Positions 6,391 to 48,609 of a DNA stretch of 64,000 nucleotides are shown in pieces; position 1 is the stretch's first letter, and each line of letters begins with the position of its first letter. The stretch lies in the NCBI RefSeq assembly GCF_046105845.1, contig NZ_CP151004.1. One strand, written 5' to 3'. The notes under the pieces were generated by a model. It was not told the origin of the DNA. It did no database searches and saw nothing but the letters and a program-made list of their open reading frames with translations. This DNA comes from Escherichia coli (GTDB taxonomy: Bacteria > Pseudomonadota > Gammaproteobacteria > Enterobacterales > Enterobacteriaceae). The position numbers and the translations under genes were made by a program.

Positions 6391-6601
6391 GCGTTCATTA
6401 ATTTGATTTATTTGCATCCATTAGCGCTTTTAACTGCTCCGGCGTAAACGGTGGTTTGCGTCGGTGCAGCATCGCATGGCAATTAGGGCACACAGGAAGT
6501 AAAAAAACAAATGAGATCAAGGTAATATATCTTCACTTGCAGGCTTGAACAGCAGAAAATTTGCGAGCATGATCGCAATTATTTCACTGCCAGGGATATC
6601 A

Positions 6602-7784: not shown

Positions 7785-10700
7785 TTATAGCTGACGTTGA
7801 TCCAGACTGCTATATATCGCCTTTATTTCATTTTTTACGCCTTCGCCACGGTACACCAAAGACGTATCGTATCGTTGATATTTATCTTCTCGCGCAGCGC
7901 TGAACCAGTTAAAAGATCCAACGCACAACAACTCTTCATCCCTAATCACAATTTTGCTGTGAACGCGATTCACCAATTTTGTAGCAATGCCCATATTATT
8001 GAGCTTTTCGACTGCATCATTTAGAAGATGCAGTTTCTCCTGGCGCTTATCATCATCGATATGCGCAATATTGCAGTTTTTATCCGTTACCACGGTAATA
8101 TCAATACCTCGGGAGCGGGCCAGAGCCATTGACGTCAGAAACCCCGTTTGCTCCACTTTTTGCCAGGATAACCAGGGGGAAATAATCGTGATCTTCTGTT
8201 GAGCTGCGGCCAGAGCATTATTCAAGAATTCATCATGCTGCTCCACACCATGCAACGTTGAAATATGTGTCTGTGCGGAAATTAAATCCTGTCGTTTCTG
8301 AAACTCAAATTGCAACGCATTATTATCTGAAGCAAACAGAAATTTTGCCAATAACCCTCGTGGCGAAGATGCGGGCTGCATCTCAATAAGGTCCATATCG
8401 CCAAAGACCAGAAAACTATCCTTAGCGCGTGAGACAGCAACATTGAGGATACTGCTGTTGCTATCAAGAAACCTGCCATCTTCATGTTTTGAGTAGACTG
8501 GGGAAAAGAGAACAATCGCCCTTTCCGCACCCTGCAAGGAGTGCACAGTCCCCACTGTCAGTGAGCCCTCTTCGTCTTTGTCATTAATCTCCAGCTTACG
8601 CAATGACGTTTTGATGGCATTAACCTGCGCCGAAAATGGCGTCACAACACCAACAACTTTGTACAGAGGTTCCCCGTAATGGCGCTCTATATCATCCTTA
8701 TGTGTCGCCAGCCATGCTGCTATTGTTTCAGCTTCAAGAGGGTTATAACGGCTCCCCCCATTTGGCTTCATGCCTCGGCCATCAATATGCAGATATCCCA
8801 TTGCGGGAAAAATCGTCCCTTTTTCCATCCCTCTTTTAGGCTGCAACTTACCGTTATAGCAAAGTGAGTTACAGTAGCCGATGATGTTATTGAAACAGCG
8901 ACGATGCTCATACAGATACATTCCGCGCTCGAACTTGGGATCATACTGGTAGCGGGAGTTGAACTGGGCAACCTGCATTACGCTGCCAGATGCTGCACTT
9001 TTTCCAGACCTACACACATGGGAATATGTATTTATTAACTCTTCCTGAGTGCCACCAGAAAGAATATTCTCCTCAAGCATATTGCCCATATCAGTAACGG
9101 GTAGACAATTCCAGATTGGAGCTATTTGCTCCGTATCGCCAATCACCAGTGCTTTCTTCGCCAATGCAAAAGAGGCCGCAGCAACCTCCGGGAGTACCTG
9201 CCCTGCTTCATCGACAATCAGTAAATCGGCAAAGTTATATAAATAATTATTATCCGATGTTCTGTCCCCACCAAAAGATTTTCTCCTGTTCATATGGTAA
9301 GGCAACATGTAGCAGGTCATTACCACACAAGGAGTAAGTTTCATTCTTCTTAGCCAACGAGCCTCGGCGATAGTTGTCCCGGTAATTCCTTTTTCTTTTT
9401 GCAGGTTATCAATTGCCGCCATATCCATCAGCCAGCGACCTTCCCAATAATGAGTCGCTAACAAGAACGCTGGAAAACGAATCTGAGTATCGGCAAGCTC
9501 GTCCGCTCCGGCGAGGTTCAGCTCATCGTCTCCCCTGTAGCCCAGAGCATAAGTCAACCCGCGCCATTGTTTTGCTGCTTCCATTTCGCTTCGGGCTATG
9601 TCCTGCGCAAAGTTGATATTCTGTTGGCACGCCGCCTGCTCTTGTTGCGCTTTAGCGATCAAACTATCGATAAATTTATCAATATCTTCGGAACAATTTC
9701 CCTGGAACGCTGTCATTCTTGCGCCGAACGTAGAGTCCAGGAAGAGGTTAATCTGGTAATGGCGTTTAGCACGAACAGCAGGGAGCCATGACAAAAATGC
9801 ATACATAAGCGACTCATCGGCACGGTATTGCTGCCACTGCTTTTTACCTCTGGCTAAAAGTGAAATTTCGTTGCCAATATTGAGAAGAAGTGTGTTTTTG
9901 TCCTGAAGATACTGGTCGAGATTCTCACTGATGACTCGCTGTTCATGGCGGATATCATTGAGTCTGCGCCATGCAGGTTCGATTTGCTGAAGTTGCATAA
10001 CCTGTGAAGTTAAACGTTCATGCAAAAGCGTCACTACATGCTCTGGCGAATTGCACTCTCCAGCTCCAAACGCCGCCTCCGCTTTTTCAAGGTAAAAGGC
10101 CCGGGCTTTTTCCAGATATTCCAGGGATTCAACGCGGTTAAAAAAATCTTCAGTCTGGTATTTCTTCGCTGCCTCAACCTGACGGCTTTTAGACGGAAAA
10201 TAAGCGCCATAGCTTATTACTTCCGGCAACCAACGCCCAGACATTACGCCAAAACCAGTAGAGAAATCTTTTCCAAAGGCTTCAATAATATTGGTGACGG
10301 CCTGATTGTTAGTCGATGTGGCAATAATTACAGGAGGTTCAGTTTGATTAAGTGCGGCTCTTGTCCATTCGGTGGCAATAATAGAAAGCACCAGCGTAGT
10401 TTTACCCGTTCCCGGAGGACCGTTGACAGCGAGCATATCACCCTGCTGTTGAGTCAGATAATGGCTCAGGGCATCGCGCTGCGCCACTGCCAGCGGAAAC
10501 TTATCGCCGGAATGCCCCAGACGTTCGCAGAACATCGCATTCTTAGCGAGAAGTGGCTCCACTGGAGCCATTTCGTTTGAGGCAAAACGCGTTAATAGCG
10601 GAACCTTAACCTGGCTCATCAGAAGATGGTCATACATAGGCAGGATATGAACGCTGGCCCCTACATGCTGGCTAGCTTTAACAATATAACCGTATCCAGC

Positions 10701-11300
10701 CCGTTCGTATGGCTCAGATGTAGCGACCCAATTTCCAGCGACGTTTCTTAAAAGGTTATCTGACTGTTGTAGATAATTTTGCCAATGCTGACGATACCTG
10801 GCATGGCGTTCCGCTTTCTCTTCGTCAGTTTCTTCGTAATGTTCTGGTTCATCTTCATTAATGGTGGCTGTGTTATGCGTGGTTTTGTATTTGTCATATT
10901 GCGCCAACTCACCAATAGAAAAATGACCGGAAGGGAGAGGTTCAAGCAGATCGCGGGGAATAGTGGCTGAAGCGGCAGGAAACAAAAAACCTTCCCTATT
11001 CAGAAGAGCGGAGGTAACCAGTGGCGTGATAATTGCGGGTGCACCTGCCATTTGCTCTTTGCCATGCTTTACTATGCGGTTCCACACTTGGGGCCGTAAC
11101 ACGACTTCAACGGTTTTTACCGACTCCCCTTCACCGTCAAAAAATGCCCGAATAGTCTCGTCATCCAACTGCCCTGCGGTGATATTTATCCATCGAATGA
11201 ATGAATCTGTATCTTTACGTGAAAACGTTCCTTTACCAGATTCGGCGTCAGCTAAGGAGTTGCGCCAGTATGAAGTGAATCCCAATGTATTGCTGTCCAT
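7785..11300 (-). CDS. SF1 (Upf1-like) helicase fused to a C-terminal PLD-family HKD nuclease; Mokosh type II-like architecture
   Basis: Walker A GPPGTGKT (about 10397-10421), Walker B LIVDEAGQ, helicase motif [13 protein letters not shown]-terminal HSKIVIRD...GSFNW (HxKxxxxD...GSxN, near 7960); start taken at MDSNTLGF (11300). Confidence 0.8.
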
Positions 11301-11592
11301 TTTCCATTCCGTGACATAATAGAAATCATTGATTTCATTGATGTAAATATTACTTATGATTAAACATTGTCCACGATGCGAGCACGATCGCAATAAATAT
11401 TGTGCCTGGAGGATGGATTAGATTTTCTGAAAGAGCCGAATCCTTAATAGATAAGCGCAAACATACTTGGTTCGGTATTCTTAAGGGAATTAATATGGAT
11501 TGAACCAGGTGGAAAAAACAGCGGAAAAGATTTGTGTAGCGCGGATTTCAGGCATAAAAAAAGACCTCAGTTGAGGTCTATTTACATACTTT

Positions 11593-11610
11593 TGGTGCCG
11601 AAGGCCGGAC
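11593..11610. repeat. 18-bp direct repeat of the leuX 3' end; distal att-like boundary of the leuX island
   Basis: TGGTGCCGAAGGCCGGAC is identical to the reverse-complemented 3' end of the tRNA at 22703-22720. Confidence 0.7.
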
Positions 11611-11776
11611 CCGAATTTCACACCTAATAGACTGATATCAATATTGTTTATAAACAGGAATGAATAGTTATACCCGAACTTGTACCCACACGTTAAAATC
11701 CGTACAAAAAAATAGACATTGCAAGTGGGTATAAAGCCATACCAGTAGAACACCGATTTGGCTGTCAAAGCAAGAC

Positions 11777-13352
<1,576 letters not shown>

Positions 13353-13648
13353 TTTATTGATCTCAGGCTCACTCTAGCCATGGATAAAGAGCTTCATGAT
13401 CTAAGCTGACCTGCGGCGAACCTATTCTGCTAGCTGTAACTTTAGAGCGGTGCTCTCGGCGGAAACCATCGGCATGTGTACGCAAGAAAATAGCTGATTT
13501 GCTGTATACTTTGGCTATCACTACGCCAACATTCTCTGCGTATTCAAAAATCTGCCTGACAAAGTTCAGTTTTGTACTGTTTACATGACTCGATGGTTGT
13601 TGATGCTGGTTTTGTCATGTGAACGATAGATAGATGTAAGGCTACTTC

Positions 13649-13685
13649 TAGTCACATGTTCACTTGTGACTATGTAAGCTTACAT
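13649..13685. promoter_or_regulatory. Two adjacent perfect palindromes upstream of the methyltransferase operon (candidate operator)
   Basis: TAGTCACA-N8-TGTGACTA (13649-13672), immediately followed by the 14-bp palindrome ATGTAAGCTTACAT (13672-13685); about 245 bp upstream of the operon start. Confidence 0.3.
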
Positions 13686-13927
13686 ATCCCAGTCAGAGAC
13701 AGCTAATTGAAAAAGAGATATCATCATCAGCAATAGAAGTACAGAGATTGAGAGGCTTTATGAGATCCATTGATGTCACGAGCAATATACTAAATCTGTA
13801 AATTAACACCTTTGTGTTGCATGCTAATGAATTGCCCTTTAATGCAAACAAGTCAGTAGACGCCACAAAGAAAAAGCATGTAAATCTCCATTAAAACATA
13901 TAGATAGAAAGTTAAAAACGAGATAAC

Positions 13928-15718
13928 GTGGAATCGATTACCAAACTTTACCAGACCCCGCTGCCATCTACCCGTACTGGCCCTTTGTATAATGCGTTCT
14001 CATATCCAACAAAGATTTCACCAGAAGCTATAGCGGTTTACATTGCTACGCACACCGAGCCCGGTGCAACAGTGTTAGACGCATTTGCTGGTAGTGGTAC
14101 CACAGGCTTAGCCACTCTGCTCTGTGACCGCCCTACACTCGAAATGAAGCGAATGGCGGAAAGCCTCGGCGCATCGCCAAAGTGGGGACCACGTAATGCA
14201 CAACTTTTTGACATTGGAACATTAGGGTCATTCGTATCTCAGACCATGTGCAATCCTCCTGATCCTGACGAATTTGCAGATGCAGTGAAGGAGCTATGTA
14301 AACAAGCTGAGTTACAATTGGGTTGGTTATACAGTATTAAAGATGCCAATGGCCAAGTAGGCATGCTCCGCCATGCTATTTGGTCTGATGTACTAATCTG
14401 CCCTAACTGTAATACTGAGACCTCACTTTGGGATGCCAGTGTGAAAACTAATCCCATCAAAATGGCTGATTCTTTCATTTGTAAGGGTTGCCAGAAGCTC
14501 GTATCTATTGAAGCTTGTGAAAGAGCCACAGAGACAATCTCTGATGTTTTCGGAAGTACACAGTGCACCAAAAAACGAGTGTTAGCTCGCGTGCATGGAC
14601 GTTGCGGAACAACAAAGTGGCAGAGGCCTCCAACTGATGAAGACTATGAGATTTTGGCTCGCATTGCCGAAATGCAGCCTCCAACATCAGCCCCAAACGT
14701 TGAAATTGAATGGGGAGAACTAAGACGCTCAGGCTATCATTTTGGGATAGATAAGCTCCATCATTTCTATACAAAGCGTAATTTCATTGCGATGGCTTTA
14801 CTAATGGAGCTAGTCAATAACTTTAATGAAAGCGTTCGAGAGGCCTTGCGGCTTCTTGTCCTTAGCTACAATGCGAGCCATTCGACACTCATGACTCGTG
14901 TAGTGCTAAAAAAAGGACAAAATGACTTTGTACTTACGGGCGCTCAAAGTGGCGTGCTCTACATCAGCGGATTTCCAGTTGAAAAAAATCTTATAGAGGG
15001 TATTCGTCGCAAATCTAATTCGTTCATAAACTCGTTCCGGCTTTTATACGGTAGTCAAAGTCAGGTAACTGTTCATAATGTTAGCAGTGAAACTATGCCA
15101 CTCAAGGACAATTCCGTGGATTACGCTTTCACTGACCCTCCTTTCGGCGATTATATCCCATACGCTGAGCTCAATCAGCTCAATGAGCTTTGGCTAGGGC
15201 GTTCCACTGATCGTAAACGTGAAGTCATTGTGAGCCCTTCTCAAGCTAAGGGAGTGAAAGAATACGGCAGTATGATGGGTACAGTATTCAAAGAAATGTC
15301 TAGGGTACTGAAGCATGACGCATTAGCTACCGTAGTATTTCACTCCGCACATTCGGAGATATGGAGAGCTCTAGTTCAAGCTTATACCGAAGCAGGATTC
15401 GCAGTGGAAGCAACAAGCGTACTTGATAAAATTCAGGCAAGTTTTAAACAAGTAGTTTCGAATGTTTCTGTTAAGGGTGACCCTCTATTATTGTTATCTA
15501 AGCGCAGCCAAGAACGTTCAGAGTCTAAGACTTGTGATTTAATCGCCGCTGAGATAATCAATAATGCTAAAAATGATTTGAAACCCGATCCACAGCGTCT
15601 CTATTCACAATTTGTGGGAAGATGTCTCGAGCTGGGCAGCAACGTTACTATGGATGCAAAAACCTTTTATGCACTTGCTCAAACCAACGGTTTATGTGTT
15701 AAAGGAACCAATACGTGA
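13928..15718 (+). CDS. DNA methyltransferase-like protein (N4/N6 beta-class-like core with permuted motif order and a Cys4 zinc-ribbon insert), 596 aa
   Basis: SAM motif I VLDAFAGSGTTG at residues 48-60, preceded by a YPTK context; CPNC...CKGC cysteine cluster; motif IV FTDPPFGDY at residues 401-409 (about 15134); GTG start; stop overlaps the next gene. Confidence 0.8.
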   Translation: MESITKLYQTPLPSTRTGPLYNAFSYPTKISPEAIAVYIATHTEPGATVLDAFAGSGTTGLATLLCDRPTLEMKRMAESLGASPKWGPRNAQLFDIGTLGSFVSQTMCNPPDPDEFADAVKELCKQAELQLGWLYSIKDANGQVGMLRHAIWSDVLICPNCNTETSLWDASVKTNPIKMADSFICKGCQKLVSIEACERATETISDVFGSTQCTKKRVLARVHGRCGTTKWQRPPTDEDYEILARIAEMQPPTSAPNVEIEWGELRRSGYHFGIDKLHHFYTKRNFIAMALLMELVNNFNESVREALRLLVLSYNASHSTLMTRVVLKKGQNDFVLTGAQSGVLYISGFPVEKNLIEGIRRKSNSFINSFRLLYGSQSQVTVHNVSSETMPLKDNSVDYAFTDPPFGDYIPYAELNQLNELWLGRSTDRKREVIVSPSQAKGVKEYGSMMGTVFKEMSRVLKHDALATVVFHSAHSEIWRALVQAYTEAGFAVEATSVLDKIQASFKQVVSNVSVKGDPLLLLSKRSQERSESKTCDLIAAEIINNAKNDLKPDPQRLYSQFVGRCLELGSNVTMDAKTFYALAQTNGLCVKGTNT

Positions 15719-17763
15719 TGAGTAAGCATGATGATAATCATATCGAGATTAGCTGCCCTATAGACTTTGAACGGCGAAAACGGCTGGGGCAGTACTTCAC
15801 GGGTACCGGCCTTGGTCGTTTGCTTGCAGCCCTTGCTCAAGCCGAAAAGGCTGACAGCATCATAGATCCTATGGTGGGATCTGGAGACCTACTTGCCTCT
15901 TGTATAGAGATTGATGCTAAACCTGCTGTAATGGCAGGTATCGAGATAGATATGAAAGTACATAAGGCTTGTTCAAAGCGATTGCCACATGCACATTGTT
16001 TACTTGGTAATGCTTTCGATCCCAGGGTTATTGCACAGTTGCCCGTAAAATCATGGGATTTAGTAATCGCAAATCCCCCTTATGTTCGCTATCAATCCCT
16101 TCGGGATAAAGATCACAATTCAAGCGCATTTCCTTCCGCAATGCAAATTCGAAAAATGTTGCTTCGATCGTTAGAGTTGATAGATACACTCGATAAAGAA
16201 GATAAGCGACTTTTTGCCGAACTCATCCACGGTTATTCTGGTCTATCCGATTTGGCAGTGCCTGCATGGATTCTCTGCGCTGCTTTGGTTGAGAAAGGAG
16301 GACGTTTAGCTCTAATTGTACCTGAGTCGTGGCTTAGCCGAGACTATGCAACAATAGTGAATTACCTTCTGTTTAGATGGTTCGACATAGAATTTGTTGT
16401 AGAGGACGAACATGCGTCATGGTTTGAAGAAGCTCAGATCAAGACAACATTGATCATCGCCAAGAGAATTCAACGTCGCTCTTCCAAACTCTCAATTCCT
16501 GCTGAATATCACTATTGTCACATAGCACTTGCAGCCGCAGCAGCTAACAACAGAAGTCCTATAGGTGGTATTAACTTACCGGTAAAAGAGGCTGAAAAGC
16601 TCTTCGCAAAACAGGCTCAAATCTGGCTCCGAGATGCGTCTAAACATGAAACGGGCCTTGTTAGCACTCGTCCAATTTCTCTAAATCACTCTTGCAAAAA
16701 TATGATCGCGTCAGCTTCCCGCCAAAAGTGGTTTGCCACTATGAGTAAAGCTGATGATGTTTTCAGCAACGAAGACTATATACCTCATGAGATCCACGAA
16801 TGGATTAAAAGGAATACACTTACCCCTTCGTTCGATAGTTTTGAATCTATAGGCATCGCTGTTGGCCAAGGACTTAGGACAGGTGCTAATAATTTTTTTT
16901 ACGCTAGCGGAGAATTAAAAGACGGACACGTCGAGCTATCTTTTTTAGGCCCGTTATCAGGATTGAAAGCTAGAAGCTCAATCAACATCGTTAAGCCCAC
17001 ATTACGCCGCCAATCAGAGCTGCCTAATGGTTTTGTAATTTCTCCTTCTGATGCCAAAAGTTGGACGTTAGACTTAAGAAACTATGTACTGCCCGAAGAT
17101 ATTGGCGATAATGATATATCTTGCACATCATATGAGCTTATGCCAAATGAACTTGTTAAGGTCGTTAGAGCTGCACAAGAAGCAAACTTTGGCACAAGCG
17201 AGAGGCCGCTAAAAATTTGGGAGCTGACGGCGGTCGCACCTAATATCCGACCTGCAACACCTCAGACTCCCGCTCGTCATTGGTATATGTTGCCAAATTT
17301 TACACCTCGCCATCAACCAGATGTATTCTTAGCACGTGTAAATACGCTAACCCCTAAGGCTTATCTAAATCAAGATAGAGCATGCCTTATCGATGCTAAT
17401 TTTTCGACAATGTGGTTATTAGATGATTCAAAATGGTCAGCAACTACAATCCTCGCTTTTATGAATTCTACATGGGTTCAAGCTGTAATCGAGTGTCTGG
17501 GGTCGGTTATGGGCGGCGGGGCGTTGAAAGTTGAGGCCACTCACCTACGCAAAATTCCTGTTCCAAAGTTTAATGATGAGCAAAGAAAAATTCTTTCCGA
17601 TCTTGGAAAAAAACTTGTAAAAGGCACACAGGAAAAACTAGTTATTTTAGAGATAGATAGGATAATAGCTGAAGCTTTGGGCTGTAATGACATGAATATT
17701 GATGAACTTAAACAGATTACGCATTTAGGTCAAACTCGGCGGGCTAAACACAAAGGAAGGTAG
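15715..17763 (+). CDS. N6-adenine DNA methyltransferase, gamma-class (Eco57I/TaqI-like) with a C-terminal TaqI_C-like domain, about 682 aa
   Basis: GQYFTG (motif X), DPMVGSGDLL (motif I), NPPYV (motif IV, about 16072), GLRTGANNFFY (TaqI_C-like GxxTGxNxxF); start overlaps the upstream stop (GTGATGA). Confidence 0.8.
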   Translation: MMSKHDDNHIEISCPIDFERRKRLGQYFTGTGLGRLLAALAQAEKADSIIDPMVGSGDLLASCIEIDAKPAVMAGIEIDMKVHKACSKRLPHAHCLLGNAFDPRVIAQLPVKSWDLVIANPPYVRYQSLRDKDHNSSAFPSAMQIRKMLLRSLELIDTLDKEDKRLFAELIHGYSGLSDLAVPAWILCAALVEKGGRLALIVPESWLSRDYATIVNYLLFRWFDIEFVVEDEHASWFEEAQIKTTLIIAKRIQRRSSKLSIPAEYHYCHIALAAAAANNRSPIGGINLPVKEAEKLFAKQAQIWLRDASKHETGLVSTRPISLNHSCKNMIASASRQKWFATMSKADDVFSNEDYIPHEIHEWIKRNTLTPSFDSFESIGIAVGQGLRTGANNFFYASGELKDGHVELSFLGPLSGLKARSSINIVKPTLRRQSELPNGFVISPSDAKSWTLDLRNYVLPEDIGDNDISCTSYELMPNELVKVVRAAQEANFGTSERPLKIWELTAVAPNIRPATPQTPARHWYMLPNFTPRHQPDVFLARVNTLTPKAYLNQDRACLIDANFSTMWLLDDSKWSATTILAFMNSTWVQAVIECLGSVMGGGALKVEATHLRKIPVPKFNDEQRKILSDLGKKLVKGTQEKLVILEIDRIIAEALGCNDMNIDELKQITHLGQTRRAKHKGR

Positions 17764-17772
17764 CAGAATTTT

Positions 17773-20700
17773 ATGGGAACAATTTACAATGAAACTCAAG
17801 GCTTAGCATTTCTGAAAGAAGCTGTAGCACTTATGGCTGATGGAAAAGCTGAGGATGTTCTGCGACATGCGCTATCTGCCAAACTGCCGCTCATGTTCCC
17901 TAAACAGCCATGGTGGATAAAAGCACATGTTACAGGTACAGAGTCGCTTGCTAAATTTCATGAATTTGGTTCGAAAAAGTATGGATTCGTGGATGTATTA
18001 GTAGGTTCAACTGTTATTGAATATGAAAGAAATTTACAAACACAGGGTTCATTCACACATGGGCTCCATCAGTTAAAACAATATTGTGCTTCTCTTCTTA
18101 ACAGCCACACGCCTTCAGATCTTTTAGTTGGGGTACTATCAGACACGATTCGCTGGTATGCCTTTCGTGTTTCAGACGTAAAAGATATTTCGGCTGTTCC
18201 CGGTGCGACAAGCTACGGCCCTGAACATATTGATTTAGCTGAAATTGAATCCTATGACCTGTCGGCAGCTGGGAGCATTGAGGCCAAAAAGCTTGGTAAA
18301 TTCTTGGTTCGATATCTGGGCCGAGAAGGTGGACGAACTTTAGCAGCATCCATGCTAGCAAAGGATTTAGGCTTTGAAAGCTCATTTTGCGAAACACATC
18401 TCCAGCAAATAGAAAAACTAGTTGATGTAGCTTTTGTAAGCGATCCATCCTACGCTGGGTTAATCACCAAACTCTGGATGGATTTTGTTTCTTACTTGGG
18501 TGGTGAATCTGCTACAGGTAAATTTGATAAAACTTCATATATTGGAGAATTGTACATATTAACGTTAGCCAAGCTTATTTGCGCTAACGTACTTAGCGGT
18601 AAAGGACTTGTTAGCGACGATACGGAACTATTATCAATTCTAGATGGTACATTTTTCAAAGCGAAAGGACTTCCGAATCTTGTAGAATACGACTACTTCG
18701 GTTGGCTTAATAATAGCCCTTATGTTTCCCCCCTTGCCAAAGTAGCACGCGACATTCAGAACGATCTATTAGCTTATGACTTTGAGTCTGCTCCAGCTGA
18801 AGACCTATTTGGTTCTCTAATGGCTCAGCTTGCAACACGCGCTCAACGTCTTCTCCTCGGTCAAGAATGGACACCAGCATGGCTAGCTGCGAAAGTAGTA
18901 AATGAAGCCATCAACAAACTGCCATTAAACCAGCAACCAAGATTCATCGATATGTGTTGCGGTTCAGGCACTATAGTTGTGGAGACAGTAAAAGCGGTCC
19001 AACAACGGTTACTTGCAGCAGGCTCTAAGCCAGGAGAACCTGCTGCGTTAAGCTCATTAGCCACTGCAATTACGGCTTTCGATATAGATCCGCTCGCCGT
19101 AATGTTAGCAAAAGTGGGCTGGGTACTGGCTTGCAAGGACTGGCTTATACCTGGCCATGAAGCCTTAATTCCTGTGTATCACGCAGACTCACTATTTGCC
19201 AATACTCCGGTCACCAAGGTGTTTAGTACAACAGGCGAAGAGCAACGCAAGCTAAAGCTTGACACAGAAGAGGTTGACCTACCACAATTTTTGGTCGAAT
19301 CGAAACATCAATCTCTATTTGATGCACTTTTATCACGTGGTTATGATATGGCCATGAGTAGTGCTGCAGAAGCCAAATCAACGTTAAATAATGATGATAT
19401 TGAGATAATGGTTGATTCGGTAGCTTTGCATTTAGACTGTGTGCTGTCAGCTGAAGAACGCACATCTACATTATTCTTTTGCTGCCAACTGTTACGCGCA
19501 CTTGAAGCATTGCAACGTGCTGGTCGAAACGGCATTTGGTCATTCGTTCTGAAAAATAGCTTTCGCCCAGCCTTAGTGGCGGGCCGTTTTAATGGAATTG
19601 TTACTAACCCACCATGGCTATCGCTAAGCCGCATTGGTAGCAACCCTTATCGTAATGCGTTAAAAGCAAAAGCGGATAAATATGGAATTAAGCCATCTGG
19701 CGCTTCACACCTGCATGTTGAAATCGCGACGACCTTCTTGCTACATGCTATCGATCATTATCTTACATCAGATGGGGTTGTTGCATGTATCTTACCCGAA
19801 ACAGTTCTGAACGGTTCTCATCATGAACCATTCCGGTCATCCAAGTATCTATCAGCTAATAGTCCAGCAGCATTCAATCCACAAGAAATTTGGAAAGTGG
19901 CCAGCCAAACATTTAAAAATGAGGCCATTGTTCTATTCGGTTATAAATCTAAGCCAACATTTCCAGTAGTAAGCCTCTTGGGCCGAAAAGTTAGCAGTTC
20001 ATTTGAAGAATTCTGCGAGTTTCACATCGTTAATTCTGGAGGGAAGTCTGCTTGGGCATTAGACCGCCCTGTAACAGAAGTGTTGAAAGTGGAAACTAAA
20101 GATTCAATTGGACCTCTGTTTAGACAAGGAGCCGATATAATGCCCCGCGGAATTATTTTTCATGATATCAAAAAAAACGGAATATCATGGGATCTTGGTC
20201 CCATTCATCCCGGCTCATCACTATATTTTTTGCGTTCTGAGGGTAAAATTCTTAAGGACTTTTCTTTAAGCGCCTGTGGGGTGAACGATGGAGTGATATA
20301 TGATGTGCTTCTTTCAAAACATTTAGCCCCTTGGGAATTATCTGTAGGTTCAAAGGCCTTATTACCATTCCAGCGTAGTGACGATAAGTGGCTCGCTCGT
20401 ACTGGATCAAATATTGCAGCCCTAGGAGCTTCTACTGCCTCAGCAATCAAAGCTATGTTGACGGCAACCGGTGAAAACATAGAAGATTTCTTTTTACGAA
20501 TCGATACTGATCGCAAGAAATTAACCACCCAGAGTTGGAGCTCAGAAGACTGGGTTGTATTCGGGTCTGCTGGAGGTAAATGGCCATGCGCCGCTTACAC
20601 ACGCGGAGAGCAGATTCCCTGCTCTAAAACGATAATAGACCAAACGCTCTATTGGGGCGTAGTCAAAAGTGAGGATGAAGCGATATACATTACTGCACTA

Positions 20701-21018
20701 ATTAATAGTCCTGCGGTAATGAATGTGATTGTATCCCATCAACCTAGAGGATCCTTTGGGGAACGACACATACACAAGTTGGCTTTCGACCGGACACCTT
20801 CTTATGACCAAACCTCAGCTAAACATCTCGACGTTGTTCGCTCGGCGAAGGATTTGATGAATCAGTGGGCTAATCGTCGCATGGAAGCTGACATATCTCC
20901 CATGCTATCTCCTAGTGTTCACTTAATTACTCGCAGAAAAAAGATTCGTAATGCATTAGAGTCATTGCCTGCATGGGAGCCGTACGTGGCAGCCACTCAA
21001 GCTATATATGAAATTTAA
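17773..21018 (+). CDS. Large multidomain protein (1081 aa): HsdR/MmeI-like N-terminal domain, central gamma-class SAM-methyltransferase core, large C-terminal domain; Type IIG/IIL-like
   Basis: N-terminal D74...E83-x-E85...Q100xxxY104 pattern; GQEWTPAW (motif X-like); FIDMCCGSGT (motif I, about 18943); DIDPLAVMLAKV; NPPW (motif IV, about 19606); RBS AAGGAAGG upstream of ATG 17773. Confidence 0.8.
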   Translation: MGTIYNETQGLAFLKEAVALMADGKAEDVLRHALSAKLPLMFPKQPWWIKAHVTGTESLAKFHEFGSKKYGFVDVLVGSTVIEYERNLQTQGSFTHGLHQLKQYCASLLNSHTPSDLLVGVLSDTIRWYAFRVSDVKDISAVPGATSYGPEHIDLAEIESYDLSAAGSIEAKKLGKFLVRYLGREGGRTLAASMLAKDLGFESSFCETHLQQIEKLVDVAFVSDPSYAGLITKLWMDFVSYLGGESATGKFDKTSYIGELYILTLAKLICANVLSGKGLVSDDTELLSILDGTFFKAKGLPNLVEYDYFGWLNNSPYVSPLAKVARDIQNDLLAYDFESAPAEDLFGSLMAQLATRAQRLLLGQEWTPAWLAAKVVNEAINKLPLNQQPRFIDMCCGSGTIVVETVKAVQQRLLAAGSKPGEPAALSSLATAITAFDIDPLAVMLAKVGWVLACKDWLIPGHEALIPVYHADSLFANTPVTKVFSTTGEEQRKLKLDTEEVDLPQFLVESKHQSLFDALLSRGYDMAMSSAAEAKSTLNNDDIEIMVDSVALHLDCVLSAEERTSTLFFCCQLLRALEALQRAGRNGIWSFVLKNSFRPALVAGRFNGIVTNPPWLSLSRIGSNPYRNALKAKADKYGIKPSGASHLHVEIATTFLLHAIDHYLTSDGVVACILPETVLNGSHHEPFRSSKYLSANSPAAFNPQEIWKVASQTFKNEAIVLFGYKSKPTFPVVSLLGRKVSSSFEEFCEFHIVNSGGKSAWALDRPVTEVLKVETKDSIGPLFRQGADIMPRGIIFHDIKKNGISWDLGPIHPGSSLYFLRSEGKILKDFSLSACGVNDGVIYDVLLSKHLAPWELSVGSKALLPFQRSDDKWLARTGSNIAALGASTASAIKAMLTATGENIEDFFLRIDTDRKKLTTQSWSSEDWVVFGSAGGKWPCAAYTRGEQIPCSKTIIDQTLYWGVVKSEDEAIYITALINSPAVMNVIVSHQPRGSFGERHIHKLAFDRTPSYDQTSAKHLDVVRSAKDLMNQWANRRMEADISPMLSPSVHLITRRKKIRNALESLPAWEPYVAATQAIYEI

Positions 21019-21053
21019 TATAATATTTAGCTTGAAATTTTTTTAAATATTAA

Positions 21054-21088
21054 ATGATGGGAAATTTGTATAATTACCCCATCATTTT
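21054..21088 (+). terminator. Putative rho-independent terminator of the methyltransferase operon
   Basis: Stem ATGATGGG / CCCATCAT with a 16-nt loop, followed by TTTT, 36 bp after the gene-3 stop. Confidence 0.4.
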
Positions 21089-21266
21089 CTCTATAAGTTA
21101 ACTTAATGAAATTCTATTATCTAATAATGTAATGGCATCTCTAATGCTTGTCAGCTTATCCTAATTGAGTAGAGGTTTATGGTATAGACTTGTAGTAACA
21201 GGATAAGATTAATACACGATTGTTATAATTAGTTTGAACAAATCATTATAAGAATCATCAATTTAC

Positions 21267-22512
21267 CTACCCAAACTCAAACGGACTTACTCCTTTCTCC
21301 CGATTCGCATCAAGGTAATCAGCCCACCACTGCAGCATCAACCTCCTCTCCCCCAGATGCTCCGCCTTATGGATGTAGGCAGCCCTAGCAGAGCTACGCT
21401 CCTGATGGCTCATCTGCCGCGACACCGCATTCCTCGACCACAATCCCGATTCAATCAATGAGCTACACGCCATCGTTCTGAAACCATGTCCACATACTTC
21501 CGTTTTCGTGTCATAGCCCATCACTCGCAGAGCCTTGTTAACCGTATTCTCACTCATCGGCTTACGCGGATCGTGATTACCAACGGAGATCAGCTCTCGG
21601 TTTCCATTCATGCTTTTGATCTTTTCCAAAATAGCTAAGGCCTGACGCGACAAGGGAACAAGATGTGGAGTCCTCATCTTCGAACCACGTTGAGAATGCT
21701 TAACACCTTCCAGCGGTTCACGCTCTCCCGGAATCGTCCACATAGCCGTTTTAAAAATCCACTTCTGACCAGCGAGCAAAACGCAACTCGCTTGAACGGA
21801 TGAAAACCAGCAAAGTGAGTTCAACCGCCAGTCGTGTTAACGGCCTGCCAGAATAGTGATCAATGCGGTGAAGTAATTCAGTAATACGGTTAAGTTCCAG
21901 AGCTGCACGGTGCTGTCGTTTTGCCGTAGCAACCGCACCGGCAATCTCTTGTGCTGGGTTATAATCGATTAAGCCGCTCTGAACGGCAAACCGCATAATC
22001 GCAGTAGTTCGCTGTTGCAAACGAGCCGCAACTTCTAGTCGTCCGGAAGATTCCACCGCTTTGACGGGTACAAGAAGATCCCACGTCTTCAATTCAGCAA
22101 TGTTCCGCTTACCGATAGTAGTAAAGAGATTATCTTCGAAACTTTTCAATACACGAGCGCTATGCGATGCAGACCACTTCTGATTGCTGGCGTGCCAGTC
22201 TCTGGCAACCACTTCAAACGTTATCGCCTCTTGATCCTGCTCTATTTTAACTGCTTTCTTGTTCTCACTGGGAGCGACGCCATTAGCTAACAATTTACGG
22301 GCTTCATCCCGGCGTGTCCGGGCATCTGCCAGCGACTCTTGAGGGTATTTCCCCAGCGCCAGTATCTTCTCGTTGCCACCAAAGCGGTAACGTAGACTCC
22401 AGTATTTTGAATCGTTAGGGTGAACCAGCAACACCATGCCTTCGCCATCAGCCAGCTTATAGACTTTTATTTCAGGCTGGGCAGCACGAACCTTCACATA
22501 ACTAAGAGCCAT
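21267..22512 (-). pseudogene. P4-type (tyrosine recombinase) integrase next to leuX, reading frame split by a frameshift
   Basis: Two overlapping ORFs (22512-21751 and 21824-21267) together give an integrase of about 415 aa (N-terminal MALSYVKVRAAQ..., C-terminal catalytic region GHGFRTM...); overlap at 21751-21824. Confidence 0.7.
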
Positions 22513-22702
22513 GATGAGTGTCCTTTCAAAGGTTCTGTGTGGTACAAACATTATCGAACCGGGATATACCCACAGTTGTACCCACATCAGTAAGTTGATG
22601 TAGATTGAATTAGGTTGAGTGAAAAAGTGAGGAAGGCATTGCGGATACTGGATTTCAGACACAAAAAAAGCCGCCCTTGAGCGACTCGATTTGCATACGA
22701 TG

Positions 22703-22787
22703 TGGTGCCGAAGGCCGGACTCGAACCGGCACGTATTTCTACGGTTGATTTTGAATCAACTGCGTCTACCGATTTCGCCACTTCGGC
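22703..22787 (-). tRNA. leuX: tRNA-Leu (CAA), leuX
   Basis: Reverse complement reads GCCGAAGTGGCGAAATCGGTAGACGCAGTTGATTCAAAATCAACCGTAGAAATACGTGCCGGTTCGAGTCCGGCCTTCGGCACCA: cloverleaf with long variable arm, CAA anticodon, CCA end. Confidence 0.95.
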
Positions 22788-22982
22788 ACTGAAGAGGTAT
22801 GCGGAAAACGTTGTGGATTATACCTGTCGCACGCCACCATGCAAGCGCCAGCTTGCTCGCACCTCGCTAAGTGCTGAAATTTTCAGCATTGCATACAGCG
22901 ATGTGTAACCTTTGTCACACTCCAGGCACCCCGCCCTGCCATGCTCTACACTTCCCAGACAACACCAGAGAAGGACCAAAAA

Positions 22983-24002
22983 ATGTCGATGATAAAAAGC
23001 TATGCCGCAAAAGAAGCGGGTGGAGAACTGGAAGTTTATGAGTACGATCCCGGTGAACTGAAGCCACAAGATGTTGAAGTGCAGGTGGATTACTGCGGGA
23101 TCTGTCATTCCGATCTGTCAATGATCGATAACGAATGGGGATTTTCACAATATCCACTGGTTGCCGGGCATGAGGTGATTGGGCGCGTGGTGGCGCTCGG
23201 GAGCGCCGCGCAGGATAAAGGTTTGCAGGTCGGTCAGCGTGTCGGGATTGGCTGGACGGCGCGTAGCTGCGGGCATTGCGATGCCTGTATTAGCGGTAAT
23301 CAGATCAACTGCGAGCAAGGTGCGGTGCCAACAATTATGAATCGCGGCGGTTTTGCCGAGAAGTTGCGTGCAGACTGGCAATGGGTGATCCCACTGCCGG
23401 AAAATATCGACATTGAATCTGCCGGGCCGCTGCTGTGTGGTGGTATCACGGTCTTTAAGCCATTGTTAATGCACCATATCACTGCTACCAGCCGCGTTGG
23501 GGTAATTGGTATTGGCGGGCTGGGGCATATCGCTATAAAACTTCTGCACGCAATGGGATGCGAGGTGACAGCCTTTAGTTCTAATCCGGCGAAAGAGCAG
23601 GAAGTACTGGCGATGGGTGCCGATAAAGTGGTGAATAGCCGCGATCCGCAGGCACTGAAAACTCTGGCGGGGCAGTTTGATCTCATTATCAATACTGTGA
23701 ACGTCAGCCTCGACTGGCAGCCTTATTTTGAGGCGCTGACCTATGGCGGTAATTTCCATACGGTCGGTGCGGTTCTCACGCCGCTGTCTGTTCCGGCCTT
23801 TACGTTAATTGCGGGCGACCGCAGCGTCTCTGGTTCAGCAACCGGCACACCTTATGAGCTGCGTAAGCTGATGCGCTTTGCCGCCCGCAGCAAGGTTGCG
23901 CCGACCACCGAACTGTTCCCGATGTCGAAAATAAACGACGCCATCCAGCATGTGCGCAACGGTAAGGCGCGTTACCGCGTGGTGTTGAAAGCCGATTTTT
24001 GA
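22983..24002 (+). CDS. ahr: NADPH-dependent aldehyde reductase Ahr (YjgB), zinc-type alcohol dehydrogenase, 339 aa
   Basis: GHEVIG and CGICHSD zinc-ADH motifs and GIGGLGH Rossmann motif; start at MSMIKSYAA. Confidence 0.9.
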
Positions 24003-46740: not shown

Positions 46741-47676
46741 ATGGCTAATCCGCTATATCAGAAACATATCATTTCCATAAACGACCTTAGTCGCGATGAC
46801 CTTAATCTGGTGCTGGCGACAGCGGCGAAACTGAAAGCAAACCCGCAACCAGAGCTGTTGAAGCACAAAGTCATTGCCAGCTGTTTCTTCGAAGCCTCTA
46901 CCCGTACCCGCCTCTCTTTCGAAACTTCCATGCACCGCCTGGGTGCCAGCGTGGTGGGCTTCTCCGACAGCGCCAATACATCACTGGGTAAAAAAGGCGA
47001 AACGCTGGCCGATACCATTTCGGTTATCAGCACTTACGTCGATGCGATAGTGATGCGTCATCCGCAGGAAGGTGCGGCGCGCCTGGCCACCGAATTTTCC
47101 GGCAATGTACCGGTACTGAATGCCGGTGATGGCTCCAACCAACATCCGACGCAAACCTTGCTGGACTTATTCACCATTCAGGAAACCCAGGGGCGTCTGG
47201 ACAATCTCCACGTCGCAATGGTTGGTGACCTGAAATATGGCCGCACCGTTCACTCCCTGACTCAGGCGTTAGCGAAGTTCGACGGCAACCGTTTTTACTT
47301 CATCGCGCCGGACGCGCTGGCAATGCCGCAATACATTCTGGATATGCTCGATGAAAAAGGGATCGCCTGGAGTCTGCACAGCTCTATTGAAGAAGTGATG
47401 GCGGAAGTAGACATCCTGTACATGACTCGCGTGCAAAAAGAGCGTCTGGACCCGTCCGAGTACGCCAACGTGAAAGCGCAGTTTGTTCTTCGCGCCAGCG
47501 ATCTCCACAACGCCAAAGCCAATATGAAAGTGCTGCATCCGCTGCCGCGTGTTGATGAGATTGCCACCGATGTTGATAAAACGCCGCACGCCTGGTACTT
47601 CCAGCAGGCAGGCAACGGGATTTTCGCTCGCCAGGCGTTACTGGCACTGGTTCTGAATCGCGATCTGGTACTGTAA
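46741..47676 (+). CDS. pyrB: Aspartate carbamoyltransferase catalytic subunit PyrB, 311 aa
   Basis: STRTR and HPLP motifs. Confidence 0.97.
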
Positions 47677-47688
47677 GGGGAAATAGAG

Positions 47689-48150
47689 ATGACACACGAT
47701 AATAAATTGCAGGTTGAAGCTATTAAACGCGGCACGGTAATTGACCATATCCCCGCCCAGATCGGTTTTAAGCTGTTGAGTCTGTTCAAGCTGACCGAAA
47801 CGGATCAGCGCATCACCATTGGCCTGAACCTGCCTTCTGGCGAGATGGGCCGCAAAGATCTGATCAAAATTGAAAATACCTTTTTGAGTGAAGATCAGGT
47901 AGATCAACTGGCATTGTATGCGCCGCAAGCCACGGTAAATCGTATCGACAACTATGAAGTGGTTGGCAAATCGCGCCCCAGTCTGCCGGAGCGCATCGAC
48001 AATGTGCTGGTCTGCCCGAACAGCAACTGTATCAGCCATGCCGAACCGGTTTCTTCCAGCTTTGCCGTGCGAAAACGCGCCAATGACATCGCGCTCAAAT
48101 GCAAATACTGTGAAAAAGAGTTTTCCCATAATGTGGTGCTGGCCAATTAA
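47689..48150 (+). CDS. pyrI: Aspartate carbamoyltransferase regulatory subunit PyrI, 153 aa
   Basis: C-terminal zinc domain (CPNSNCISH...CKYCEKEF). Confidence 0.97.
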
Positions 48151-48222
48151 TTGCGGTTGGTAATAAAAGTCTGGCTCCCTATAATGAGCCAGACTTTTTA
48201 CCGCTGTAATAAAGGAGAAATC

Positions 48223-48609
48223 ATGAGCAAAACTATCGCGACGGAAAATGCACCGGCAGCTATCGGTCCTTACGTACAGGGCGTTGATCTGGGCAATATG
48301 ATCATCACCTCCGGTCAGATCCCGGTAAATCCGAAAACGGGCGAAGTACCGGCAGACGTCGCTGCACAGGCTCGTCAGTCGCTGGATAACGTAAAAGCGA
48401 TCGTCGAAGCCGCAGGCCTGAAAGTGGGCGACATCGTTAAAACCACCGTGTTTGTGAAAGATCTGAACGACTTCGCAACCGTTAATGCTACCTACGAAGC
48501 CTTCTTCACCGAACACAACGCCACCTTCCCGGCACGTTCTTGCGTTGAAGTTGCCCGTCTGCCGAAAGACGTGAAGATTGAGATCGAAGCGATCGCTGTT
48601 CGTCGCTAA
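48223..48609 (+). CDS. ridA: Enamine/imine deaminase RidA (YjgF), 128 aa
   Basis: Start at MSKTIATENAPAAIGPY; the ORF-track N-terminal extension is rejected. Confidence 0.9.
   Translation: MSKTIATENAPAAIGPYVQGVDLGNMIITSGQIPVNPKTGEVPADVAAQARQSLDNVKAIVEAAGLKVGDIVKTTVFVKDLNDFATVNATYEAFFTEHNATFPARSCVEVARLPKDVKIEIEAIAVRR

What the first reader, a model, noticed from the sequence alone, without database searches (positions are those of the whole stretch)
21267..22512. leuX-adjacent P4-type integrase is split by a frameshift
The integrase is encoded by two overlapping ORFs (303 and 185 aa; overlap at 21751-21824) that together give a normal-length (~415 aa) tyrosine recombinase. If real, the frameshift would immobilise the island, as often seen for fixed tRNA islands; it could also be a sequencing error in a homopolymer.
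Basis: seen in the sequence. Interest (0 to 1): 0.3.

Follow-up and report, generated by a model that had tools for sequence, protein, structure and literature searches.

The report
Dead integrase gene beside leuX tRNA
The recombinase gene that once moved an 11-kb restriction-modification island into the leuX tRNA gene of this E. coli is truly broken by a one-base frameshift with a stop codon, and it is still decaying; this is a common, already annotated fate of such genes.

Summary
A P4-family tyrosine integrase gene (minus strand, 22512 to 21267) lies 190 nt downstream of tRNA-Leu(CAA) leuX. It is split at GAT TTT TAA AAC (T5 = 21757-21753, A4 = 21752-21749), where intact relatives read GAT TTT GAA ACG. 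This leaves a 253-aa N-terminal product carrying catalytic Arg239. The remaining catalytic residues (K278, H342, R345, H369, Y379) are stranded in the +1 frame.

It is not a sequencing error. The identical lesion is in two complete RefSeq genomes (PGAP marks it "frameshifted" in N1420), nine further assemblies and three of four metagenome contigs (the fourth ends before the site). The exact 253-aa product is recorded on 104 contigs.

The gene is decaying:
- Sub-lineages add a second frameshift, an IS100 insertion and a nonsense codon.
- One contig with the lesion still has the consensus G34 and D80, so the window's G34D and D80A arose after the break.
- The repaired protein departs from 15 near-invariant columns, against a mean of 1.5 in 133 intact homologues.

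The island (11593-22702) keeps its 23-bp att repeat, but IS debris sits where a related island (W284) carries alpA and further genes.

A "shifty-stop" +1 recoding at UUU_UAA_A is formally possible but unsupported. Verdict: an ordinary, already known kind of pseudogene, of low interest.

The parts
22703..22787 (-). tRNA-Leu(CAA), leuX; its 3' end (22703-22725) is the proximal att core
   Evidence: ARAGORN. The 23-mer repeat search found exactly two copies in the window, with 0 expected by chance.
21267..22512 (-). P4-family tyrosine integrase pseudogene (1246 nt; intact relatives are 1245 nt, 414 aa)
   Evidence: PGAP annotates the orthologue in N1420 as 'tyrosine-type recombinase/integrase, frameshifted'.
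21751..22512 (-). N-terminal reading frame: 253 codons plus a TAA stop. It holds the arm-binding domain (22503-22252), the central domain (22218-21934) and the start of the catalytic domain with Arg239 (21798-21796).
   Evidence: The exact 253-aa product is on 104 contigs.
21749..21757 (-). The lesion: TTTTTAAAA on the gene strand (T5 = 21757-21753, A4 = 21752-21749). The frame-0 codons are GAT TTT TAA, where intact relatives read GAT TTT GAA.
   Evidence: Alignments. The sequence is identical in the 14 sequences outside the window that reach the site.
21267..21752 (-). C-terminal part of the integrase in the +1 frame (K254 to G414 plus stop). It holds K278, H342, R345, H369 and Y379.
   Evidence: All six catalytic-motif residues are kept, and they are invariant in the 133 homologues.
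21400..21430 (.). Approximate recombination breakpoint inside the 3' end of int. Below it the window is 97-100% identical to the W284 island; above it (int 5' part, spacer, leuX flank) identity is about 87%.
   Evidence: Identity profiles.
13928..21018 (+). Island cargo: three co-oriented genes. They are a 596-aa N6/N4 methyltransferase (PglXI-like), a 682-aa N-6 methylase and a 1081-aa protein resembling a type IIG restriction-methyltransferase.
   Evidence: Pfam and PADLOC scans; RefSeq annotation.
12298..13344 (+). IS3-family transposase ORF (rve domain) within the IS debris at the distal end of the island. Homology to the W284 island stops at 13353.
11593..11615 (-). Distal direct repeat of the leuX 3' end (22 of 23 bases match). 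It marks the island boundary, so the island spans 11593-22702.
   Evidence: Many genomes match the window only up to 11610-11620.

Best explanation
This is a real, clonally inherited pseudogene of the P4-family integrase that once inserted an 11.1-kb restriction-modification island into the 3' end of leuX.

The mutation at codons 253/254 turned GAT TTT GAA ACG into GAT TTT TAA AAC G. That is a net +1 base plus a substitution, and it creates an in-frame TAA. Translation therefore ends after Phe253. The product has the arm-binding and core-binding domains and catalytic Arg239, but it lacks K278, H342, R345, H369 and the nucleophile Tyr379. It cannot cleave or rejoin DNA.

Shown here: the lesion, its inheritance, and continuing neutral decay of the gene.

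Inferred: the island can no longer excise or integrate by itself. It persists as a fixed chromosomal segment carried by vertical descent and by homologous recombination across the leuX hotspot. Its retention is probably due to the methyltransferase / type IIG cargo.
For: 1. Anatomy. The two ORFs are halves of one gene, and deleting one T restores the full three-domain architecture. The six catalytic-motif residues lie on both sides of the break.

2. The lesion is real. It is identical in N1420 and AF16, in L007-L015 and in L019-L021. The exact 253-aa product is on 104 contigs. PGAP flags the gene as frameshifted.

3. Decay continued after the lesion:
- a further -1 frameshift at gene position 153 in N1420, AF16 and L020;
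- an IS100 insertion in AF16;
- Gln274 changed to a stop in L008;
- L021 carries the lesion but keeps the consensus G34 and D80, so the window's G34D and D80A are later changes.

4. Relaxed constraint. The repaired protein departs from 15 columns that are at least 97% conserved, against a mean of 1.5 (median 1) in 133 intact homologues. Lineage-specific codon changes are 19 nonsynonymous to 38 synonymous, against 5:46 and 6:42 in two intact relatives (Fisher p = 0.0013).

5. No intact near-identical allele was found. Among 5,426 complete E. coli genomes the next best match is 88%. Among listed protein cluster representatives the best is 90%.

6. The island is degraded elsewhere too. The W284 version has an intact int plus alpA and further genes, whereas the window version ends in IS3 debris.

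7. Precedent. intB at leuX in K-12 is also an annotated pseudogene.
Against: - Loss of mobility was not tested. The att repeats are still present (22 of 23 bases), so another P4-type integrase in the genome could act in trans.
- All six catalytic-motif residues are still intact in the downstream frame.
- The site UUU_UAA_A is an ideal +1 re-pairing site, so a trace of full-length protein cannot be excluded.
- The nonsynonymous-to-synonymous ratio on the window lineage (0.5) is raised but not neutral. Most of that branch therefore predates inactivation.
Confidence: 0.93

Rival explanations
1. Sequencing or assembly artefact: a homopolymer miscount in the T5/A4 run of an otherwise intact gene.
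For: The lesion lies in short homopolymers. The N1420 assembly shows many small indels relative to the window (20 gap openings in 10 kb).
Against: The sequence is identical in the 14 sequences outside the window that reach the site, from different projects: complete genomes, NCBI drafts, ENA and JGI metagenome assemblies, and Logan. The exact truncated product is on 104 contigs. Removing a T yields Lys at a position that is E or D in 133 of 133 homologues, and removing an A leaves a TAA stop, so the lesion is not a simple run-length error.
Confidence: 0.01
2. Adventitious or programmed +1 ribosomal frameshifting at a 'shifty stop'. Peptidyl-tRNAPhe on UUU re-pairs to the overlapping UUU while the A site holds UAA. 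A small fraction of ribosomes would then make full-length integrase (with an F253-K254 junction), and the island would stay weakly mobile.
For: The site is GAU UUU UAA A with perfect +1 re-pairing, and the downstream frame runs open to the normal stop with all catalytic residues kept. A slow-to-decode stop next to a re-pairable P-site codon is described as especially shift-prone, with about 2% or less for CCC_UGA without stimulators (PMC3082878; PMC5009743).
Against: - There is no Shine-Dalgarno-like stimulator: -5.2 kcal/mol, which 30% of 15-mers in the gene equal or beat, against -10.7 for the prfB element.
- All 133 homologues are single ORFs.
- The allele is confined to one near-identical clade, which then gains upstream frameshift, IS and downstream nonsense lesions.
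- Replacements arose at invariant residues after the lesion.
- Together these show no selection to keep either frame.
Confidence: 0.04
3. Reversible phase-variable switch, or a retained function for the fragments. Either the short tract toggles the integrase ON and OFF by slipped-strand mispairing, or the 253-aa arm- and core-binding fragment is kept as a DNA-binding regulator.
For: The lesion is in a T5A4 tract. The N-terminal fragment keeps two complete DNA-binding domains, and the identical 253-aa product is widespread.
Against: The tract length is the same in the window and in all 14 other sequences that reach the site, and no ON variant of this allele was found. Tracts of 4-5 nt are far shorter than known contingency tracts (established knowledge). 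The N-terminal fragment itself is destroyed by the -1 frameshift at codon 51 and by IS100 in sub-lineages, and it accumulates replacements at invariant arm-domain residues.
Confidence: 0.02

Closest known systems
intB (b4271) of E. coli K-12, at leuX (RefSeq feature 'cryptic prophage PR-Y'; called the KpLE2 element from my own knowledge)
   Same: Same chromosomal position directly downstream of leuX, same P4-family integrase architecture, and also an annotated pseudogene.
   Different: Only about 68% nucleotide identity. The K-12 lesion is a TAG nonsense codon at codon 19, not the codon 253/254 frameshift with stop. The cargo differs: IS2 and yjgX follow in K-12, against the methyltransferase and type IIG genes here.
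Phage P4 integrase (Int, 440 aa), the founding member of the family; by my own knowledge (not checked here) it integrates at leuX
   Same: 54.7% amino-acid identity over 99% of the repaired protein. Arm-type N-terminal domain, with the att core in the 3' end of the tRNA gene.
   Different: P4 Int is intact and sits in a satellite phage with its own excision functions. The gene here is broken, and no P4 replication or regulatory genes were seen in the island.
Intact leuX-island integrase of E. coli W284 / CD09 (WP_096861309.1, 414 aa)
   Same: Same island type. The cargo is 98-100% identical and the last ~150 nt of int about 95% identical. The position beside leuX is the same.
   Different: W284 has a single open frame (GAT TTT GAA ACG). 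The 5' ~1,090 nt of int are only about 87% identical, which points to a recombination breakpoint inside int. The W284 island also retains alpA, an inovirus Gp2-like gene and a GTPase gene, which the window lacks.
prfB (RF2) programmed +1 frameshift, and 'shifty stop' sites such as pheL CCC_UGA
   Same: A re-pairable P-site codon lies directly before an in-frame stop, and the product continues in the +1 frame.
   Different: No upstream Shine-Dalgarno-like stimulator, no conservation among homologues, and secondary inactivating mutations in the clade. It resembles these sites in sequence only.

Membership tests
P4-family tyrosine integrase (tRNA-island integrase) | Three-domain architecture: arm-type DNA-binding domain, central (core-binding) domain and C-terminal tyrosine-recombinase catalytic domain | tested here: met
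   PF13356, PF22022 and PF00589 are all matched in the repaired protein. The first two lie in the N-terminal ORF and the last is split between the ORFs. PDB hits cover the N-terminal and central domains of related integrases, including a 'CP4-like integrase'.
P4-family tyrosine integrase (tRNA-island integrase) | Sequence relationship to phage P4 Int | tested here: met
   54.7% identity over 99% of the query to P4 Int. 83-90% identity to hundreds of enterobacterial integrases.
P4-family tyrosine integrase (tRNA-island integrase) | Catalytic residues R, K, H-x-x-R, H/W and Y present | tested here: met
   R239, K278, H342, R345, H369 and Y379 are present and invariant in 133 homologues. Their assignment to catalytic roles rests on motif position and established knowledge, not on a structure.
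P4-family tyrosine integrase (tRNA-island integrase) | One uninterrupted reading frame encoding all domains (a functional gene) | tested here: not met
   A TAA stop after codon 253 and a +1 shift. The sequence belongs to the family only as a pseudogene.
P4-family tyrosine integrase (tRNA-island integrase) | Located next to a tRNA gene, with a direct repeat of the tRNA 3' end at the far end of the element | tested here: met
   leuX lies 190 nt upstream. The 23-bp repeat at 11593-11615 matches 22 of 23 bases, with 0 expected by chance. Comparative boundaries fall at 11610-11620.
P4-family tyrosine integrase (tRNA-island integrase) | Catalyses integration and excision | not testable with these tools
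   Needs an excision PCR or recombination assay.
Programmed +1 ribosomal frameshift (prfB-like / shifty stop) | P-site codon able to re-pair in the +1 frame, directly followed by a stop codon | tested here: met
   GAU UUU UAA A; UUU re-pairs to UUU.
Programmed +1 ribosomal frameshift (prfB-like / shifty stop) | Stimulatory element such as an upstream Shine-Dalgarno-like sequence | tested here: not met
   The best duplex with the 16S 3' end is -5.2 kcal/mol, which 30% of 15-mers in the gene equal or beat; the prfB element gives -10.7.
Programmed +1 ribosomal frameshift (prfB-like / shifty stop) | Frameshift site conserved across homologues, with both frames under purifying selection | tested here: not met
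   133 of 133 homologues are single ORFs with E or D at the site. The clade carrying the site gains further frameshift, IS and nonsense lesions and replacements at invariant residues.
Phase-variable contingency locus | Long simple-sequence tract with length polymorphism between isolates | tested here: not met
   The tracts are only T5 and A4, and their lengths are identical in the window and in all 14 other sequences that reach the site.

The most novel reading that the evidence does not exclude
The lesion created, by accident, a textbook shifty stop (UUU_UAA_A). A small percentage of ribosomes could slip +1 and make full-length integrase with an F253-K254 junction. The island would then be attenuated rather than dead, a 'savior indel' that lowers excision frequency while keeping rare mobility.
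Probability: 0.04. Interest if true: 0.35.

Novelty: already known. Interest (0 to 1): 0.08.

Why it matters
It matters little beyond correct annotation. The locus should be labelled a single integrase pseudogene, not two genes, and the 11-kb leuX restriction-modification island should be treated as a fixed remnant rather than an active mobile element.

The locus is a tidy small example of stepwise pseudogene decay that can be ordered from public assemblies:
1. The frameshift with stop came first.
2. Replacements at invariant residues (G34D, D80A) followed.
3. A second frameshift arose in one sub-lineage.
4. An IS100 insertion followed within that sub-lineage.

A further nonsense codon arose in one assembly (L008) that lacks the second frameshift.

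It also shows an island being carried across the leuX recombination hotspot, with a crossover inside int itself.

Tried and rejected
- **Sequencing error.** Rejected by the 14 other sequences that reach the site and share the lesion and by the 104 contigs with the exact product.
- **Search for an intact copy of this allele.**
  - Megablast against 5,426 complete E. coli genomes: apart from N1420 (99.9%), the next full-length hit is 88%; AF16 appeared only.
  - Protein search of 5.8 billion clusters: the best listed representative is 90% identical.
  - Exact 30-mer haplotype scan of GTDB species genomes: 0 hits.
  - The same scan of metagenome contigs: 4 hits, none with an intact site; three carry the lesion and one ends before it.
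- **prfB-like stimulator.** None found.
- **Solved structures for the catalytic domain.** Only N-terminal and central domains of relatives are in the PDB. The catalytic residues were therefore assigned by motif and by invariance.
- **Phase variation.** No tract-length polymorphism was seen.
- **Literature search for this specific lesion.** Nothing found. The only paper opened gave general context on leuX as a hotspot of integration and recombination (PMC2617782).
- One script printed an over-long column dump. It was redone concisely.

Full report
**Observation**

ARAGORN finds a single tRNA in the window, tRNA-Leu(CAA) at 22703-22787 on the same strand. The neighbouring gene is ahr, as at leuX in E. 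coli K-12.

The upstream ORF matches the Pfam arm DNA-binding domain (PF13356, 1.3e-22) and the phage-integrase central domain (PF22022, 1.7e-25). The downstream ORF matches only profile positions 61-170 of the 172-position catalytic domain PF00589.

Alignment with intact relatives shows that the true start is the ATG at 22512. The N-terminal product is therefore 253 aa, not 303 aa. The reported overlap at 21751-21824 is only an effect of ORF calling.

**The lesion**

On the gene strand the window reads GAA GTG GAT TTT TAA AAC GGC. The intact integrases of strains W284 and 14EC033 read GAA GTR GAT TTT GAA/GAT AC.. In window coordinates the T5 run is 21757-21753 and the A4 run is 21752-21749.

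Deleting one T gives a 414-aa protein with a full catalytic-domain match (profile positions 4-170 of 172, residues 206-384). That protein is 54.7% identical to phage P4 Int over 99% of its length. It is 83-90% identical to hundreds of single-ORF enterobacterial integrases of 411-427 aa.

The break separates Arg239 from K278, H342, R345, H369 and Y379. All six are invariant in 133 homologues. Their catalytic roles are assigned from motif position and established knowledge of tyrosine recombinases, because only N-terminal and central domains of relatives have solved structures. Neither fragment can be a recombinase on its own.

The lesion is not a pure run-length change. The residue after Phe253 is E or D in 133 of 133 homologues. 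Removing a T gives Lys there, and removing an A leaves the TAA stop. At least two mutational steps, or one complex event (G to TA), separate it from the consensus.

**Real mutation or artefact?**

The same sequence is present in two complete RefSeq genomes. One is N1420 from Switzerland, where PGAP labels the gene "frameshifted". The other is AF16 from the UK.

The exact 253-aa product is recorded on 104 contigs, including GenBank SQM61112.1. Nine loci fetched from NCBI drafts, ENA metagenome assemblies and Logan all carry the identical lesion.

A scan of metagenome contigs with a 30-mer specific to this allele found four more contigs. Three of them reach the site and carry the lesion. A sequencing error is excluded.

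**Evidence of decay**

Secondary lesions occur inside the clade:
- N1420, AF16 and metagenome contig L020 share a further -1 deletion at gene position 153 (window 22360).
- AF16 also has IS100 inserted near gene position 177. The int homology of contigs L019 and L022 also breaks off upstream of about position 150, which may be the same insertion; this was not checked.
- L008 (GCA_003291905.1) has Gln274 changed to a stop in the downstream frame.

Contig L021 is 99.2% identical to the window over 9 kb and carries the lesion. It still has the family-consensus G34 and D80, where the window and most of the clade have D34 and A80. Those two replacements at invariant positions therefore arose after the gene was already broken.

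Overall, the repaired protein departs from 15 of 290 columns that are at least 97% conserved. The mean for 133 intact homologues is 1.5 and the median is 1.

In a three-way codon comparison, window-specific changes are 19 nonsynonymous to 38 synonymous. The two intact relatives show 5:46 and 6:42 (Fisher p = 0.0013).

No intact near-identical copy of this allele was found in four searches:
- 5,426 complete E. coli genomes;
- the listed best matches of a protein search of 5.8 billion clusters;
- GTDB species representatives;
- metagenome contigs.

**Context**

A 23-bp copy of the leuX 3' end (22 of 23 bases) lies at 11593-11615, with 0 matches expected by chance. Many E. coli genomes match the window only up to 11610-11620 and then carry other elements, for example a P4-like satellite in strain 2017.09.02CC. 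The island is therefore 11593-22702, about 11.1 kb.

Its cargo is three co-oriented genes (13928-21018):
- a PglXI-like N6/N4 methyltransferase;
- an N-6 methylase;
- a 1081-aa protein resembling a type IIG restriction-methyltransferase.

The distal end of the island is IS3-family debris.

Strains W284 and CD09 carry the same cargo beside an intact integrase. W284, the one examined, also has alpA and further genes beyond the cargo, which the window lacks; its cargo is 98-100% identical to the window's.

Identity to W284 falls to about 87% from about window 21420 upward. The drop runs through the 5' ~1,090 nt of int, the spacer, leuX and the ahr flank. One crossover of a homologous exchange therefore lies inside int. 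This fits the description of leuX as a hotspot of both integration and homologous recombination (PMC2617782).

**Mechanism**

Shown: translation of int ends at the TAA after Phe253, the catalytic domain is split, and the gene is evolving without constraint.

Inferred: the island cannot excise or integrate through its own integrase. Compared with W284 it also lacks alpA. It is now inherited vertically or moved by flanking homologous recombination, and it is probably retained for its restriction-modification cargo. Rescue in trans by another P4-type integrase cannot be excluded, because the att repeats survive.

**Rivals**

The most interesting alternative is +1 "shifty-stop" recoding. GAU UUU UAA A allows perfect re-pairing of tRNAPhe in the +1 frame next to a stop. 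This combination is described as shift-prone, with about 2% or less for CCC_UGA without stimulators (PMC3082878; PMC5009743).

The evidence is against it:
- There is no Shine-Dalgarno-like stimulator (-5.2 kcal/mol, which 30% of 15-mers in the gene equal or beat).
- No homologue shares the arrangement.
- The clade keeps accumulating inactivating mutations in both frames.

I give this reading about 4%. Phase variation, or a retained function for the fragments, has no support: tract length is invariant in all the sequences, and the N-terminal ORF is itself destroyed in sub-lineages.

**Comparison with known cases, and verdict**

The closest known case is intB at leuX in E. coli K-12, also an annotated pseudogene. 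It has a different lesion, a TAG at codon 19, and is about 68% identical at the nucleotide level.

The gene belongs to the P4 integrase family by architecture, sequence, motif residues and tRNA-linked att repeat. It fails the one criterion of an intact reading frame.

This is an already known kind of feature, and this very locus is already flagged "frameshifted" in RefSeq. Interest is low.

Noticed in passing
window 13928-21018 (+): A three-gene cluster: a 596-aa N6/N4 methyltransferase (best PADLOC hit PglXI, 1.8e-116), a 682-aa N-6 methylase and a 1081-aa protein resembling a type IIG restriction-methyltransferase. PGAP calls the last one 'hypothetical protein'. No separate nuclease gene is obvious, so this may be an uncharacterised restriction-modification or defence module. 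The same cluster is in W284 and CD09.
   Followed up: partly
window ~21400-21430 (inside the 3' end of int): Identity to the W284 island drops sharply from 97-100% to about 87%. The drop continues through leuX into the ahr flank. The integrase is therefore chimeric, and one end of a homologous-recombination tract across the leuX hotspot lies within int.
   Followed up: partly
window 12172-12999, and ~6492-6503: Structural differences from the nearest complete genome, N1420. The window has 828 bp where N1420 has 2,347 bp that include an IS110-family transposase. The window also lacks about 570 bp that cover most of an HNH endonuclease gene next to a 'phosphorothioated DNA-binding restriction endonuclease' gene.
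   Followed up: partly
window 7785-11393 (-) and 11593-11615: The leuX-derived repeat lies on the leuX side of yjhR. The yjhR region, with the phosphorothioate-dependent endonuclease gene, therefore looks like an older leuX island remnant, with the present island inserted in tandem. No further att copy was found at 3 mismatches or fewer.
   Followed up: no
window ~43170-48420 (by collinearity with N1420, locus L018 20541-25796): An arginine deiminase cluster (arcA, arcC, a second argF, a YfcC-family gene and an arginine repressor) lies between the yjgK-family gene and pyrL. It is preceded by a low-GC stretch (GC 0.30-0.38 at 42001-44000). By my recollection it is a strain-variable insertion; this was not examined.
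   Followed up: no
L004 / L018 (N1420) versus window 13000-23000: The N1420 assembly shows 20 gap openings in 10 kb relative to the window. This suggests either many small indel errors in that assembly or real indel divergence. Its -1 frameshift in int at gene position 153 is nevertheless shared by AF16 and by a metagenome contig, so that one is real.
   Followed up: partly
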